Shown: in pieces, positions 16,801 through 37,800 of the stretch
Layout of the letters: the number at the start of each line of letters is the position of its first letter
How positions within the stretch are numbered: position 1 is the stretch's first letter
Origin: Pecten maximus
Lineage: Eukaryota
Length of the DNA stretch: 64,000 nt
Direction of reading: 5' to 3'
NCBI RefSeq assembly: GCF_902652985.1
Contig: NC_047028.1
Coordinates: 28,582,001-28,646,000 of the forward strand
Position numbers: made by a program

Positions 16801-19800
16801 AGATTTCATTCATATTGAATCAATTATATCATAGGTTCTCTACCTGATCACATTCTGGTGGACATTGCATGGTCATGGTGAAAGGTTCAAGATGACCTTC
16901 GACACCTGCTTGGGATTAATTGTTGAATAGGAGCTAGGGCATTTCATTTTTCGTGAATCGAACCAAATTATCTCGCTTGGAAGTTCAGCTATTAAAATTT
17001 GAGTTCAAGATAACACAATGAAATTGATGTAGCATGGTTACAATAATTTAATTATTCATGATACATGTACACAACTGTCTTTGATAAAATGGAACTTCTT
17101 AATACTTGCCTATATGTATTAGCTGGAATATTGTTATTTGTGATCTTAATCAACTTTAAAATTCACGAACATTAAATCTTCAAGCCAGATATGAGCTTCA
17201 TGAATAGGTGAGCGGTACAGCATCAATTGGGCCTCTTGTTTTAAAGATTTCTTTCGTGCAATGCATTACAGTACACAGGCAATATTCCTTCAGGTTAAAT
17301 TCACATGAGATTTTTTCACGTGAATCTCACATGAAATTCACATGAAATTTTTTTCCTGTGAAGTTCACATGAATCTTTTTATCACATGAAATTCACATGA
17401 AAAATTTCATGTGAAATTCACATGAAAAAAAATCATGTGGAATTTCATGTGAATTTCATGTGAAGGAATATTGCCTGTGTATACCATGAAAAGCCTATCA
17501 TTGTAGGAATACTGCTGACAGCTTAAATTGTTCTTTCATGCTGATTTAACTGTTTTAAATTACAGAGATATATTCCAAAGAAAGATTCAAGAACAAGAAA
17601 ATCTAGGGAAGGGATTGAGAGAACAACAAAAAACTGTAAGAGAGAGCCAGGGTCCAAGCATGCGACAGATGAAGATGTGGAAAGATGTTCAGCGGCTAAT
17701 GGAATGTAAACTACGATGTTACGACCAGACAGGAGGCATTGCTGGCTCCACTGGTATGGGATACGGTGAGGCTCCACCGGCCATGCTTGAGGAAGATAGG
17801 CTTGTGATGTAAAATGGACTATGGTATCATAATTAATTTAAAGTTAGCCATCATATATTTTCATATTAGATAATGAAATATGGAGTTTATTAATTTCATT
17901 GTGAAAATATGCAAGATACTTTTCTGTACATTGAACTTGTAATGATGAATGATATGTTTGACTTCTTCAGTTACATTCCTGGAACATTTCGTCAATTATT
18001 CCGTCCAAATAAACTGTTGGTATGATTTTCAGTGTTTTTGATATTTTAGCTTACGAGAGATGGTGTTTTGTTTTGTGTTAAATCAGTTTTCATACATGAC
18101 CAGTGCATCCGTTCTTGAACATAATTAATAATATTTTACATATATAATAACTATTTATGATTTATCAAATGTTGATTAAATTGGAAAATTGAGATTCTCA
18201 CTTTATTAGATATCCATGTTGATATATTGACACTGTCTGTAAATGATAGGGGAGGCATTGTTTTCGAAAAAGGGTGATGTTAGGTTGAATAAATATTCTC
18301 CCTTGTGCTCTATTGTTTTTTATATAAAGTATAATTTAATACATTTGTACTTACCATATCACTACCTGTTCTTACCATATCGCTACCTGTACCATATCAC
18401 TTCCTGTACTTACCATTTCGCTACCTGTACTTACCATATCACTACCTGTACTTACCATATTGCTACCTGTACTTACCATATCACTACCTGTACTTACCAT
18501 TTCGCTACCTGTACTTACCATATTGCTACCTGTACTTACCATATCGCTACCTGTACTTACCATATCGCTACCTGTTCTTACCATATCGCTTCCTGTACTT
18601 ACCATTTTGCTACCTGTACTTACCATATCGCTGCTTGTACTTACCTAATGTTACCTGTACTTACCATATGGCTACCTGTACTTACCATATGGCTACCTGT
18701 ACTTACCATATCGCTACTTGTACTTACCATTTCGTTACTTGTACTTACCAAATCGCTACCTGTACTTACCATATGGCTACTTGTACTTACCATTTCGTTA
18801 CTTGTACTTACCATATCGCTACCTGTACTTACCATATGGCTACCTGTACTTACCATATGGCTACTTGTACTTACCATTTCGCTACCTGTACTTACCAAAT
18901 GGCTACCTGTACTTACCATATGGCTACCTGTACTTACCATATAGCTATTTGTACTTACCATATGGCTACCTGTACTTACCATATAGCTACCTGTACTTAC
19001 CATATAGTTACCTGTACTTACCATATCGCTACCTGTACTTACCATATGGCTACCTGTACTTACCATATCGCTACTTGTACTTACCATTTCGTTACTTGTA
19101 CTTACCATATAGCTACCTGTACTTACCATATAGTTACATGTACTTACCATATAGCTATTTGTCCTTACCATATATCTACCTGTACTTACCATATCGCTAC
19201 CTGTACTTACCATTTCGCTACCTGTACTTACCATATCGCTACCTGTACTTACCATATCGCTACCTGTACTTACCACATCGCTACCTGTACTTACAATACT
19301 GCTACCTGTACTTATCATATCGCTACTTGTACTAACTATATCGGCGTTTCACACTTTAGATAATATATGTTGCCTATATCGACATTAGCGTAGTCTTAAT
19401 CAGACAGATCATAATATTGGGGAAACTATACCAAGGAACTTTACAGGGCTTAGGTTTAACAACACTGAACGAAAGAATACCGGTGTGATAAAATCTGAGA
19501 AAGAAGACCTAGAATCCATTTCACATAATATAGATGCATTCATAACCCATTACCAACGCACAGTTCAGAAGACAACACAATGATCATGGCGAGATCCACC
19601 CACAGTACTGATAAATCTACTTTGCTTCGAAAAACACGTTTGACAGCAGTGTTTAAGGGCCTGAATACCAATTTTATAGAACTCTTTTTCTTGGCTGTTC
19701 AAACAGTCATCCACTGCATGTTATAGGGTTGGGTAAGGGCCAGGGTGCCTGAAATAGCTGTTTTCAGGTCTGGAAATGAATTAAGATCGAATATTGGACC

Positions 19801-34800: not shown

Positions 34801-37800
34801 TTATTTTGCTCACAAATATCATTTTATTAAAACGTGATGTTAAAGTTGCGTTTCCTTACTCTTTCCGAATGTAATAGCCAAGCAAAGGCATCATTTATCT
34901 TTAGCCAATGTATTTTTCTAGCCTCTTGTTGCTCATTGCTTGCACGTCCTCTCACGGATACGAGGGCTGATTGATAAGTTGTGAGCCTCGTATTGAATGA
35001 GGTACTCTATGATGTTCATTTTAAGTCCTGCTATTCTGACTATAAAGGGCCGTGTACCCAAGGGCTGGTCTCATTTGGATAGTTTATATCGACAAGGCAT
35101 CACTCTAAAGTAAACAAGACAATCGACTTTTGAAAAATGGACAAAATCGGTTAGGGTTAGGGTGAAAGAATCATGACTGCCATTCACAATTGTTGTTTTA
35201 AATTGATTGATCATCTGCATTATTCACCTGATATCGTTCCATCAGACTTTCATCCATTTCGAAAACTGGAAACAGCTATTTCAGGCACCCTAACCCTAAC
35301 ATGCAGTGGATGAGTTTCTGTACAGCCAAGAAAAGGGTTCTATAAAAATGGCATTGAGACCCTAATACATCGCTTGCAAAAGTGTATATATATAGATACG
35401 AAGGGGATTATGTTGAAAAATAATACATTATCTCCAGCAAAATTCAAATCCTTCAATACGAACCTCACAACTTATCAATCAGCCATGGTACTTGCTGACA
35501 TCAAAGCAAAGTAGCTTTCTCAGTACTGTGGGTGGATCTCGCCATAATCATTGTGTTGTCTTCTGAACTGTGCGTTGGTAATGGGTTATGAATGCATCTG
35601 TATTATGTGAAATGGATTCTAAGTATTCTTTCTCAGATTTAATCACACCGACTTTTTTTTCGTTCAGTGTTGTTTAAACCTTAGCTCTGTAAAGTTCCTA
35701 GGTATAGTTTCCCTATGATTATGATCCGTCTGATTAGACTGCATTGATGTCGATATAAGCAACAGATATCATCTAAAGTGTGAAACGCTGATATGGTAAG
35801 TACAGGTAGCTATATGATAAGTACAGGTAGCGATATGGTATGTACTGGTAGCAATATGATAAGTACAGGTAGCAATATGGTATGTACCGGTAGCAATATG
35901 ATAAGTACAGGTAGCAATATGGTAAGTACAGGTAGCCATATGGTAAGTACATGTAGCTATATGGTAAGTACAGGTAGCAATATGGTAAGCACAGCAAGCC
36001 ATATGGTAAGTACATGTAGCTATATGGTAAGTACAGGTAGCAATATGGTAAGTACAGGTAGCCATATGGTAAGTACAGGTAGCCATATGGTAAACACAGG
36101 TAGCCATATGGTATGTACAGGTAGCCATATGGTATGTGCAAGTAGCCATATGGTATGTACAAGTAGCCATATGGTAAGAACAGGTAGCCATATGGTATGT
36201 ACCGGTAGCAATATGGTAAGTACAGGTAGCAATATGGTAAGTACAGGTAGCCATATGGTAAGTACAGGTAGCCATATGGTAAGTACAGGTAGCCATATGG
36301 TAAGAACAGGTAGCCATATGGTATGTACAGGTAGCCATATGGTAAGAACAGGTAGCCATATGGTATGAACAGGTAGCCATATGGTATGTACAGGTAGCCA
36401 TATGGTATGTACAGGTAGCCATATGGTATGTACAGGTAGCCATATGGTAAGAACAGGTAGCCATATGGTATGAACAGGTAGCCATATGGTATGTACCGGT
36501 AGCAATATGGTAAGTACAGGTAGCCATATGGTAAGAACAGGTAGCCATATGGTATGTACAGGTAGCCATATGGTATGTACAGGTAGCCATATGGTATGAA
36601 CAGGTAGCCATATGGTAAGTACAGGTCATCCTCCTCAAATTGTCATCATTTTCATAATGTCATCATCCACACATTGTCATTATCATGTCATTGTGGCTGG
36701 ACCTGTCTGGAAACTCCAGCGATGCCCCATCTATATTACACATGGTCAACATTTACTCGCGGCTTATTGTTTTTCTAAGTGTTATGTACATTGTTATTCA
36801 CACATTTAAGTCACCGGAGCGGAAGGCTCCTGTACAGGTGTGCACCGCTCCGGCAGGGCTCCGGTAGCGCTCCGGTAGCGCTCCGTTAGGTTTTGGTATA
36901 AAAGGGGTGAAAGCGAGAGCGGAGAGGGAGTTCAGTTCAGAGAGGGAGTTAGTGCAGTTGAGTTCGTGGAGTGCAGGGAGTTAGTTGCAGTTCGAGGGAG
37001 AGATCGAGTTGGAGTGCCTAGGTGTTACTTTGCTGGATGTTGCTACGTGTGCTGATGAAAGCGAGAGCGGTATTGCCATTTATATATGCTCTGTACACTG
37101 CTGATTTTGCTGAATACGTAGACTGAAACTTTACGACGGTGTTGAATTGTGATTCTCGACGACCCACACTATTTAATTCTAAACTCGGGTATTGTGGCGG
37201 GTGTCTGACGCTTCCACGAGGACATCTACCGAGGGCTGCGGGACTTTGATTATAGTTCCCCTGGCTATTTTCGCTATATATTCGGGCACGATGAATTACC
37301 CAAATCCACCCAAATCTACCCAAATCTACCCAAATCCACCCACATCTACCTTAATCTACCCAAATCTACCCAAATCCTCCCAAATCTACCCAAATCCACC
37401 CAAATCTACCCAAATCCACCCAAATCTACCTTAATCTACTATGTAAATCAAACAGAATCATACTTACAGCTGATAATTTGGGAACGTGAACTTGTTAAAT
37501 CAATTTTTAGTGCATCATTGTCGCGTAAAGCACCATGAATCGATATAATGTACACATACAATCTATTTTCAGTAGCGGTTATCTCCCCTTATGCATATAA
37601 TGTCAAGGAACAACAAAGACCTGGTTAATTTAAAGACAATTTATTACGTAGAATATTGATTATATAACAAGCAATTCGTGAAGTCGATGTATAAAAATAG
37701 TACGAAATAATTCTTAGACAAAAGTCTTCTTTAATTTTAAGCAAAGCCTACGTCTGTTAAATGTTAAAAAATGTTAAAATCCAGTTGTTACACGCACACA

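What the first reader, a model, noticed from the sequence alone, without database searches (positions are those of the whole stretch)
18346..36626. Laccase gene enclosed by ~4.4-kb inverted arms capped with outward minisatellites
Seen: 18346-22743 and 32189-36626 are colinear reverse complements, each ending outward in the same 21-bp array. They differ in substitutions, VNTR copy number and how much of the mariner insertion survives, so they are diverged copies. The right arm is the laccase 3' flank and the left arm runs into the N gap. Inference, in order of likelihood: (a) an inverted laccase paralog is hidden in the gap, giving a palindromic gene pair; (b) an uncollapsed allelic haplotype was scaffolded in reverse; (c) a giant foldback-like unit carries the laccase. 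No TSD was found for (c). The minisatellite marks the breakpoint in both arms.
[Added by the scan's program, not by the reader: the finding's places include an assembly gap (unread letters, written N; its length is only estimated) at 22744 to 23243. Whether the letters on both sides are continuous or in frame is not known: test that first.]
Basis: partly seen in the sequence, partly recalled or inferred. Interest (0 to 1): 0.65.

Follow-up and report, generated by a model that had tools for sequence, protein, structure and literature searches.

The report
Diverged duplicate flanks beside scallop laccase
Two old, non-coding copies of the DNA downstream of a king-scallop laccase gene sit on either side of that gene in the assembly, but their mirror-image layout depends on how one small contig between two gaps was oriented, so this is most likely an ordinary local duplication.

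Summary
In this Pecten maximus window, 18346-22743 and 32189-36626 are collinear reverse complements. Each ends outward in the same 21-bp minisatellite. The non-array part is 92.6% identical, with six indels of 31-473 bp.

The arms are non-coding: minisatellites, a Tc1-like remnant, a mariner remnant and unclassified DNA.

Outer flanks share nothing, there is no target-site duplication, and divergence (3.5% inner, 10.2% outer) is 2-6 times the genome's 1.71% heterozygosity. A haplotig and a foldback transposon are therefore both poorly supported.

The left arm is still in full homology at the last base before the gap, so its inner end is a contig end, not a biological boundary.

A third, older copy of the laccase 3' flank, with the last exon of sister paralog P0013, lies in the next contig. 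It has the same orientation as the left arm. The 30.7-kb contig between two 500-N gaps is the odd one out. If Hi-C misoriented it, the whole region is a plain direct tandem laccase array.

Best reading: paralogous segmental duplication in a young laccase cluster, orientation unproven. A hidden second laccase in the gap stays possible (about 0.2). Interest is low to moderate.

The parts
18346..19343 (.). Left 21-bp minisatellite (47.8 copies), outer end of the left arm
   Evidence: TRF. Unit map: 47 units tiled, the C variant dominates, and the ACAT variant is in 0 of 44 full-length units.
19344..22743 (.). Left arm, non-array part. It ends at the contig end.
   Evidence: The last 100 bases are 98 of 100 identical to the right arm.
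19783..20224 (-). Tc1/Tc3-type transposase N-terminal (HTH) remnant, left copy. It holds an 80-aa open frame at 19953-20195.
   Evidence: 64 relatives at E<=1e-3. Of the 10 scanned, 10 carry HTH_28 and 6 carry HTH_Tnp_Tc3_2. The remnant itself gives no Pfam or PDB hit.
19630..19778 (-). Inner fragment of the mariner remnant kept in the left arm. Both inverted ends are deleted.
   Evidence: it aligns to right-arm 35389-35255 at 82.2%. Right-only blocks of 473 and 112 bp flank it.
20748..21107 (.). Arm segment with a third, older copy in contig 3 (left-arm copy)
   Evidence: 75% to 54972-55334
21818..22303 (.). 32-bp minisatellite in the left arm (14.5 copies)
22744..23243 (.). Assembly gap, 500 N, true length unknown. 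Not filled.
   Evidence: No homology continues across it.
26882..28889 (+). Laccase (three-domain multicopper oxidase), exon 1
   Evidence: Pfam Cu-oxidase_3, Cu-oxidase and Cu-oxidase_2. 100% identical to P. maximus P0001. Copper motifs HWHG, HAH, HPVHLHG and HCHIDLH are present.
28961..30350 (.). 30-bp minisatellite (46.3 copies) inside the laccase intron
30851..30927 (+). Laccase exon 2 (hydrophobic C-terminal tail plus stop codon)
   Evidence: tblastn of P0001; the GT/AG junction 28889|30851 reproduces P0001.
31768..32147 (.). Palindromic MITE-like repeat, 42 bp inside the right arm's inner end. Another copy is at 9120-9571.
32189..35790 (.). Right arm, non-array part
32656..32805 (.). 32-bp minisatellite in the right arm (4.6 copies)
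33547..33926 (.). Arm segment shared with the P0013 3' flank (right-arm copy)
   Evidence: 73.5% over 393 to 55334-54956
34345..34777 (+). Tc1/Tc3-type HTH remnant, right copy
   Evidence: Family named through the left copy.
34961..35488 (+). Internally deleted mariner element with about 40-nt inverted ends, flanked by TA on each side
35791..36626 (.). Right 21-bp minisatellite (39.8 copies), outer end of the right arm
   Evidence: 40 units tiled, the G variant dominates, and the ACAT variant is in 17 of 39 units.
53912..54411 (.). Second 500-N gap. With the first it bounds a contig of only 30,668 bp (23244-53911).
54956..55334 (.). Third, old copy of the arm segment, in the 3' flank of paralog P0013
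55710..55787 (-). Last exon of laccase paralog P0013 (sister of the window's laccase)
   Evidence: 92.3% to P0013 residues 581-606. Tree.

Best explanation
The two arms are diverged paralogous copies of the non-coding DNA that lies 3' of a laccase gene unit. They were made by local segmental duplication inside a young, Pecten-lineage laccase cluster. They are not a mobile element and most likely not two alleles.

Proposed order of events:
1. A Tc1-like element and a mariner landed in the laccase 3' flank and decayed.
2. The laccase unit was duplicated once, giving P0001 and P0013. Their flanks are now 66-77% alike.
3. Later, a segment of at least 4.4 kb of the P0001 flank was copied again, with its outer limit at the 21-bp minisatellite.
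4. Since then each copy has lost pieces: the left copy lost both ends of the mariner, and the 32-bp array changed in copy number.
5. Each 21-bp array has turned over on its own.
6. The inner 1.8 kb has stayed or been made more alike (3.5% versus 10.2%). The simplest causes are gene conversion between the copies or a two-step history.

The inner limit of the copy is unknown, because contig 1 stops while still in homology.

Whether the copies are inverted around the laccase (as scaffolded) or direct (if the 30.7-kb contig between the two gaps is flipped) is not decided by the sequence.

Shown: homology, collinearity, shared transposon remnants, two-tier divergence, independent array turnover, the third old copy.
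Inferred: order of events, gene conversion, physical linkage and orientation.
For: - Collinear 4.4-kb homology with shared transposon remnants at the same positions in both copies.
- 92.6% identity (2748 of 2967 columns), with transitions to transversions 113:106.
- Two-tier divergence: 151 of 1475 outer against 51 of 1456 inner. Fisher p = 3e-13, and 0 of 500 permutations reach the change-point score.
- The arrays share only 3 distinct unit variants (29 in the left, 19 in the right). One variant is in 17 of 39 right units and 0 of 44 left units.
- The outer flanks are unrelated.
- The P0013 3' flank in contig 3 is collinear with the laccase 3' flank in four blocks: 30424-30611, 30721-30946, 31628-31735 and 33547-33926. 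The last block lies inside the arm.
- P0001 and P0013 are sister, P. maximus-only duplicates with 100/99 support, in a tree of 16 chosen proteins.
- The genome paper reports many gene duplicates (passages).
Against: - Linkage and orientation of the two copies rest on a Hi-C scaffold join across a gap that later polishing did not close.
- No read depth could be seen, so an allelic origin is not excluded.
- No eukaryotic genome collection was on hand, so I could not test whether the 4.4-kb unit or the 21-mer occurs at many other loci. That would favour a large dispersed repeat.
- One of the five matches between contig 3 and the laccase flank (54421-54679 to 31488-31220) is out of order. The 380-bp arm piece could therefore be a dispersed repeat rather than old paralogy.
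- Gene conversion is inferred only from the identity step.
Confidence: 0.6

Rival explanations
1. The duplication is real, but the 30.7-kb contig (23244-53911) was put in backwards by Hi-C scaffolding. In truth all three flank units point the same way, and the region is an ordinary direct tandem array of laccase units on the minus strand. The arms are then direct repeats, and the laccase is not enclosed by them. This is a variant of the best explanation, not exclusive of it.
For: - Unit orientation is minus in contig 1 (array, arm, gene side), plus in contig 2, and minus in contig 3 (arm piece, exon 2', gene side). The small middle contig alone is the odd one out.
- That contig is 30,668 bp between two 500-N gaps. 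The assembly's 691,874 N in 918.3 Mb allow at most about one 500-N gap per 660 kb (my arithmetic).
- Scaffolding was by 3D-DNA.
- Orientation errors grow as contigs get smaller, and 3D-DNA made more of them than SALSA2 (passages).
- Recalled, not tested: neighbouring paralogs are more often direct than inverted.
Against: - The authors curated the scaffolds by hand in Juicebox and gEVAL.
- Inverted local duplicates do occur.
- Nothing in the sequence itself says which orientation is right.
Confidence: 0.35
2. Reader's (a). The copied segment went on through exon 2 and the laccase itself, and a second, near-identical laccase lies unassembled in the gap. As scaffolded, this gives a head-to-head palindromic gene pair.
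For: - The left arm is cut by the contig end at 98 of 100 identity.
- The right arm starts only 1.26 kb after the stop codon.
- Identity rises toward the gap.
- Two of the three flank copies in the window are attached to a laccase exon.
- The assembly is 918 Mb, against the nominal 1.15 Gb genome size used for coverage in the paper.
Against: - No laccase-like sequence at either gap edge or elsewhere in the window. Besides the gene itself, tblastn gives 6 weak hits with E of 0.12 or more.
- 23244-26851 does not mirror anything.
- The 90% cluster of P0001 has 3 member sequences on 1 contig. No P. maximus partial is 90% or more identical: 51 short hits, the best 71%.
- At least 5.3 kb would have to be hidden.
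- The cluster members could not be listed (one search did not complete).
Confidence: 0.2
3. Reader's (b). The left arm is the other allele of the right arm, an uncollapsed haplotype left at a contig end and placed beside its partner, possibly through a chimeric path in the minisatellite.
For: - The species is highly heterozygous (1.71%), and 'haplotig' occurs 0 times in the main text of the assembly paper (term search), so no purging step is described.
- The copy sits at the very end of a contig.
- The inner divergence of 3.5% is within reach of non-coding allelic variation.
- Minisatellite alleles can differ greatly (recalled).
Against: - Homology stops at the array in both contigs although both go on. 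1-18345, which holds an IFT81 exon, shares nothing with 36627-53911, and no match of 150 bp or more to contig 3 was listed.
- The outer half differs by 10.2%, six times the genome mean.
- The match is internal to contig 2, not at its end.
- No LTR pair or clean transposon edge at 36627 supports a hemizygous insertion there.
Confidence: 0.15
4. Reader's (c), or a related idea. The arms are the ends of one giant foldback-type element carrying the laccase, or they are two copies of a large dispersed transposon that ends in a minisatellite.
For: - The inverted arms end outward in tandem subrepeats, as in foldback elements (recalled).
- Bivalve Helentron-type elements carry tandem arrays and lack target-site duplications (passages).
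Against: - No direct repeat of 6 nt or more in the 45-nt flanks.
- Only 0.8-1.0 kb of each 4.4-kb arm is tandem.
- The arms hold dead Tc1 and mariner pieces like ordinary intergenic DNA.
- There is no other copy of the arm in the 64-kb window except one 380-bp piece.
- HINE arrays have 140-180-bp monomers and mostly 5 or fewer copies, not 21 bp repeated 40-48 times.
Confidence: 0.05

Closest known systems
Local segmental or tandem duplication in bivalve gene-family clusters
   Same: A lineage-specific laccase pair (P0001 and P0013) lies within 30 kb, with homologous 3' flanks, plus a younger copy of the flank. The P. maximus genome paper reports large numbers of gene duplicates.
   Different: The youngest copy, as far as it is assembled, holds only non-coding flank. 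Its orientation is unproven.
Inverted segmental duplications and palindromes with a spacer, as in primate sex-chromosome amplicons (recalled, not tested)
   Same: As scaffolded, two inverted arms flank a spacer that carries a gene. The step in arm identity could reflect arm-to-arm gene conversion.
   Different: The arms are 90-96% alike rather than above 99%. They are non-coding and only 4.4 kb long, and the inverted layout rests on a scaffold join.
Heterozygous contig-end overlap or haplotig in long-read assemblies (recalled concept)
   Same: A diverged second copy sits at the very end of a contig, next to a gap.
   Different: The outer flanks are unrelated, the partner lies inside its contig, and divergence is 2-6 times the genome's heterozygosity.
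Foldback (FB) transposons of Drosophila (recalled)
   Same: Inverted arms whose outer parts are tandem subrepeats.
   Different: There is no target-site duplication. Most of each arm is not tandem. The arms hold unrelated dead transposons. Copy number could not be tested.
Helentron-type non-autonomous elements (HINE) that carry tandem repeats in oysters (PMC7492417, passages read)
   Same: Tandem arrays linked to duplicated DNA in a bivalve, without target-site duplication.
   Different: HINE arrays are central, with 140-180-bp monomers and mostly 5 or fewer copies. Here the arrays are terminal, 21 bp, with 40-48 copies.

Membership tests
Segmental duplication (at least 1 kb and 90% identity; definition recalled) | Two collinear copies of at least 1 kb and at least 90% identity | tested here: met
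   3.4-3.6 kb of non-array sequence, 92.6% identical over 2967 aligned columns
Segmental duplication | The copies share older insertions at the same positions, so they were copied as one piece | tested here: met
   The Tc1-like remnant and the mariner fragment are collinear in both arms
Inverted duplication or palindrome | Both copies on one molecule, in inverted orientation | not testable with these tools
   The copies lie on different contigs joined across 500 N by Hi-C. No reads were available.
Haplotig or heterozygous overlap | Homology runs on through the flanks, or to both contig ends | tested here: not met
   No match between 1-18345 and 36627-53911. The partner copy is internal to contig 2.
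Haplotig or heterozygous overlap | Divergence near the genome's heterozygosity | tested here: not met
   3.5% inner and 10.2% outer, against 1.71%
Haplotig or heterozygous overlap | Half read depth on each copy | not testable with these tools
   No reads were available
Foldback-type transposon | Target-site duplication flanking the two outer ends | tested here: not met
   No shared word of 6 nt or more between 18306-18350 and 36620-36665
Foldback-type transposon | Terminal inverted repeats built of tandem subrepeats | tested here: inconclusive
   Only the outer 998 and 836 bp of the 4.4-kb arms are tandem
Foldback-type transposon | Several copies in the genome with the same ends | not testable with these tools
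   No eukaryotic genome collection was on hand. Within the window there is none.
HINE / Helentron carrier of tandem repeats | Central array of 140-180-bp monomers, mostly 5 or fewer copies, between conserved 50-100-bp flanks | tested here: not met
   A 21-bp unit in 40-48 copies, at the end of the segment
Mariner element (the remnant inside the arms) | Homology to the transposase, inverted ends, TA on each side | tested here: met
   SETMAR E 5.4e-5 and Mos1 E 1.1e-3. Inverted ends of 42 nt, 88% complementary. TA at 34959-34960 and 35489-35490. Pfam itself gave no hit.
Three-domain laccase / multicopper oxidase | Three cupredoxin domains and the four copper-binding motifs | tested here: met
   Pfam Cu-oxidase_3 (1e-40), Cu-oxidase (2e-21), Cu-oxidase_2 (8e-35). 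Motifs at residues 143, 187, 528 and 622. Enzyme activity was not tested.

The most novel reading that the evidence does not exclude
The arms really are inverted on one molecule and form a young palindrome around the laccase, kept partly alike by arm-to-arm gene conversion. Then either a second, near-identical laccase lies hidden in the gap, or the arms flip the 9-kb laccase cassette by recombination between them. In the flipping case the sequenced animal would be heterozygous for that inversion, which broke the assembly at the arm.
Probability: 0.15. Interest if true: 0.45.

Novelty: new member of a known kind. Interest (0 to 1): 0.25.

Why it matters
Its main value is as a caution. An apparent palindrome around a gene in a Hi-C-scaffolded draft can come from one small contig placed backwards in a tandem gene array. 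Structural-variant or 'palindrome' calls at such places need long-read proof.

Biologically, it shows a laccase (multicopper oxidase) cluster that has expanded recently in the king-scallop lineage. Minisatellites mark the edge of the copied segment, and a step in divergence may record gene conversion.

If the inverted layout is real, the arms could drive inversion of the laccase cassette.

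Tried and rejected
- Pfam on 5 short open frames from the arms and 3 read-through frames with stops as X: 0 families. The mariner was named only through PDB sequences. 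The Tc1-like piece gave 0 PDB hits and was named through relatives.
- Rfam over the whole window: 0 matches. tRNA scan: 0. So no SINE or tRNA-like part was found in the arms.
- Search for LTR pairs in 36500-53911, to test a hemizygous insertion starting at the right array: the 5 direct-repeat families found are all tandem arrays.
- Test of whether the 349-bp, 95% direct repeat (25440-25782 and 37819-38166) marks a larger duplicated unit: no flanking homology, so it is a young dispersed repeat.
- The listing of cluster members for P0001, P0006 and P0013 did not complete because the database is switched off. What the 3 members of the P0001 cluster are stays unknown.
- The bacterial promoter and terminator scan does not apply to this eukaryotic DNA and was dropped.
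- Paper search on laccase, scallop, gene family and tandem duplication: 4 papers listed, none about scallop laccase clusters (listing only).
- A chimeric-read palindrome artefact was rejected. Such artefacts give near-identical arms, and these differ by 7% with independent arrays.
- Not used: genome contigs (bacteria and archaea only) and the phage, plasmid and E. coli collections, as irrelevant to a scallop.
Paper supplements are closed, so any contig or AGP tables of the assembly paper were not seen.

Full report
**Source of the window.** The long open frame at 26882-28915 is 100% identical to an annotated Pecten maximus protein. This is P0001, 'L-ascorbate oxidase-like', 694 aa, on a 38.9-Mb chromosome scaffold. 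It was the top hit among 537 hits at E<=0.001 from 4239 candidates. The window is king-scallop nuclear DNA, and nothing in it was taken for human.

- A BLAST of the window against itself gives a collinear inverted chain from 18346-22743 to 36626-32189 (repeat finder agrees).
- TRF finds the same 21-bp minisatellite at the two outer ends: 47.8 copies at 18346-19343 and 39.8 copies at 35791-36626.
- The unit occurs nowhere else in the 64 kb. All 1430 hit positions lie inside the two arrays.
- A global alignment of the non-array parts (3400 and 3602 nt) has 2748 matches in 2967 aligned columns, or 92.6%. It has 79 small-gap columns and six larger indels of 473, 153, 118, 112, 102 and 31 bp. Two of these are copy-number changes in a shared 32-bp array.

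**The gap, tested first.**
- There are two runs of exactly 500 N, at 22744-23243 and 53912-54411.
- The left arm is still in full homology in its last 100 bases, at 98 of 100. Its inner end is therefore the end of a contig, not a biological limit.
- The sequence after the gap (23244-26851) has no similarity to the mirrored continuation of the right arm (28919-32188). No open frame crosses the gap, and both sides are non-coding.
- The two sides are therefore not shown to be continuous.

**What the arms are made of.** They contain no gene.
- The right-arm piece 35161-35514, read through one stop as X, matches the transposase domain of SETMAR/Hsmar1 (E 5.4e-5) and Mos1 (E 1.1e-3).
- That piece lies in a 528-bp internally deleted mariner with about 40-nt inverted ends, 88% complementary, and TA on each side.
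- The left arm keeps only an inner fragment of the mariner, having lost both ends in two deletions.
- Next to the mariner, in both arms, lies a different remnant. The 80-aa frame at 19953-20195 has 64 relatives at E<=1e-3. Of the 10 I scanned, all carry HTH_28 and 6 carry the Tc3-type transposase HTH.
- Pfam and PDB did not recognise this remnant directly.
- Rfam and the tRNA scan found nothing in the window.
- Both dead transposons sit at the same places in both arms. The segment was therefore copied as one piece after they had landed.

**How the copies differ.**
- Leaving out the badly aligned 32-bp array, 202 of 2931 columns differ.
- The differences fall in two tiers with a change point at left 20972 / right 33682. 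The outer part has 151 of 1475 (10.2%) and the inner part 51 of 1456 (3.5%). Fisher p = 3e-13, and 0 of 500 permutations reach the observed score.
- The 21-bp arrays share only 3 distinct unit variants, out of 29 in the left array and 19 in the right. A variant present in 17 of 39 right units is absent from all 44 full-length left units.
- These are long-separated copies, not a chimeric-read artefact.

**The gene between the arms.**
- The laccase is an intact two-exon gene: exon 1 at 26882-28889 and exon 2 at 30851-30927.
- It has three cupredoxin domains and all four copper motifs.
- The 30-bp array lies in its intron.
- Searches were made with exon 1 alone or by laying the fetched protein on the window. 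The joined two-exon model was not used for any search.

**A third flank copy changes the picture.**
- The last exon of another P. maximus laccase, P0013, lies at 55710-55787 on the minus strand in the third contig. It is 92.3% identical to P0013 residues 581-606.
- Its 3' flank is collinear with the flank of the window's laccase in four blocks at 66-77% identity. The fourth block (33547-33926) lies inside the right arm. A fifth match is out of order.
- In a tree of 16 chosen scallop, oyster and mussel laccases, P0001 and P0013 are sisters with 100/99 support. P0013 sits on a long branch, 0.36 against 0.025.
- Arm DNA is therefore, at least in part, old laccase 3' flank. The laccase unit has been duplicated here before.

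**Orientation.**
- The three flank units point minus (contig 1), plus (contig 2) and minus (contig 3).
- Contig 2 is only 30,668 bp long and lies between two gaps.
- The assembly was built with wtdbg2, Scaff10X and 3D-DNA, then curated by hand and polished with gap filling. It holds 691,874 N in 918.3 Mb (passages). By my arithmetic that allows at most one 500-N gap per 660 kb.
- That 500 N is the 3D-DNA default is recalled, not checked.
- Orientation errors of Hi-C scaffolders rise as contigs shrink, and 3D-DNA made more of them than SALSA2 (passages of PMC6719893).
- One flipped contig would turn both apparent inversions into a plain direct tandem array. The sequence cannot decide this. I give the flipped layout about 0.35.

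*(a) Hidden paralog.*
- For: the truncated left arm, identity that rises toward the gap, and the fact that two of three flank copies are attached to a laccase exon.
- Against: no laccase trace at the gap edges. No laccase of 90% identity or more on another public contig: the P0001 cluster has 3 members on 1 contig. No partial copy either: of 51 short hits the best is 71% identical, and none is from P. maximus.
- The cluster members could not be listed.
- I give it about 0.2.

*(b) Haplotig.*
- Homology ends at the array in both contigs. The IFT81-bearing left flank (IFT81_CH domain at 8642-9079) shares nothing with 36627-53911.
- Divergence is 2-6 times the 1.71% heterozygosity.
- No transposon edge at 36627 supports a hemizygous insertion.
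- Without read depth it is not excluded. I give it about 0.15.

*(c) Foldback unit.*
- No target-site duplication, mostly non-tandem arms, and ordinary dead transposons inside.
- Oyster HINE elements carry quite different arrays.
- I give it about 0.05.

**Verdict.** The arms are a real feature of the assembly. The most likely reading is that they are two paralogous copies of laccase 3'-flank DNA from local duplication in a young laccase cluster, bounded outward by a minisatellite. 'Laccase enclosed by inverted arms' is unproven.

**What stayed unchecked.**
- Read depth, spanning reads, and the genome-wide copy number of the arm and the 21-mer.
- The paper's supplements.

**What I saw of each paper.**
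- PMC7191990, PMC6719893 and PMC7492417: passages found by term search only.
- All other papers: search listings only.

Noticed in passing
window 55710-55787 (-), with flank 54421-56129: This is the last exon of laccase paralog P0013 (92.3% identical to its C-terminus), with a 3' flank collinear to the window laccase's flank. P0013's main exon is not in the window, so its intron exceeds 8 kb or the model is partial. In the tree P0013 has a branch of 0.36 against 0.025 for its sister, so it may be decaying or badly modelled.
   Followed up: partly
window 28961-30350: A 30-bp minisatellite of 46.3 copies fills most of the laccase's only intron.
   Followed up: partly
window 15691-16539: A 40-bp minisatellite of 21 copies, 92% matches, lies 3'-ward of the IFT81_CH exon (8642-9079) in contig 1. 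Whether it is intronic was not mapped.
   Followed up: no
window 25440-25782 and 37819-38166: A 349-bp direct repeat, 95% identical, holds two 111-bp subrepeats and has sharp ends with no flanking homology. It looks like a young dispersed repeat. One copy lies 1.1 kb upstream of the laccase start and the other 1.2 kb beyond the right array.
   Followed up: partly
window 31768-32147 and 9120-9571: A palindromic MITE-like repeat matches its other copy in both orientations (69-76%). One copy sits 42 bp inside the right arm's inner end. If it is mirrored in the left copy, it could be why contig 1 breaks at 22743 (inference).
   Followed up: partly
window 40075-44717 (-): An open 1213-aa pol frame (protease, RT, RNase H, integrase) is preceded by a 367-aa gag-like frame with a PNMA match. 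This is a Ty3/gypsy-type retrotransposon that may be intact. No LTR pair of 60 nt or more was found.
   Followed up: partly
window 48363-51167 (-): A second retroelement, broken into separate RT and integrase frames.
   Followed up: no
window 52338-53353 and 58721-60333: Two arrays with a period of about 155 bp. The second is 96% homogeneous and the two are not alike. Their monomer size matches the satellite-like arrays carried by Helentron-type elements in oysters, but this was not tested.
   Followed up: no
window 23244-53911: Two 500-N gaps only 30.7 kb apart is more than 20 times the assembly's mean gap density, computed from the paper's N total. This marks a locally troubled assembly.
   Followed up: partly
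window 21097-21296 / 33557-33358: A 200-column stretch of the arms is 99.5% identical, the highest in the alignment. It lies just inside the segment that is also shared with contig 3. It may be a conversion tract or a constrained element.
   Followed up: no
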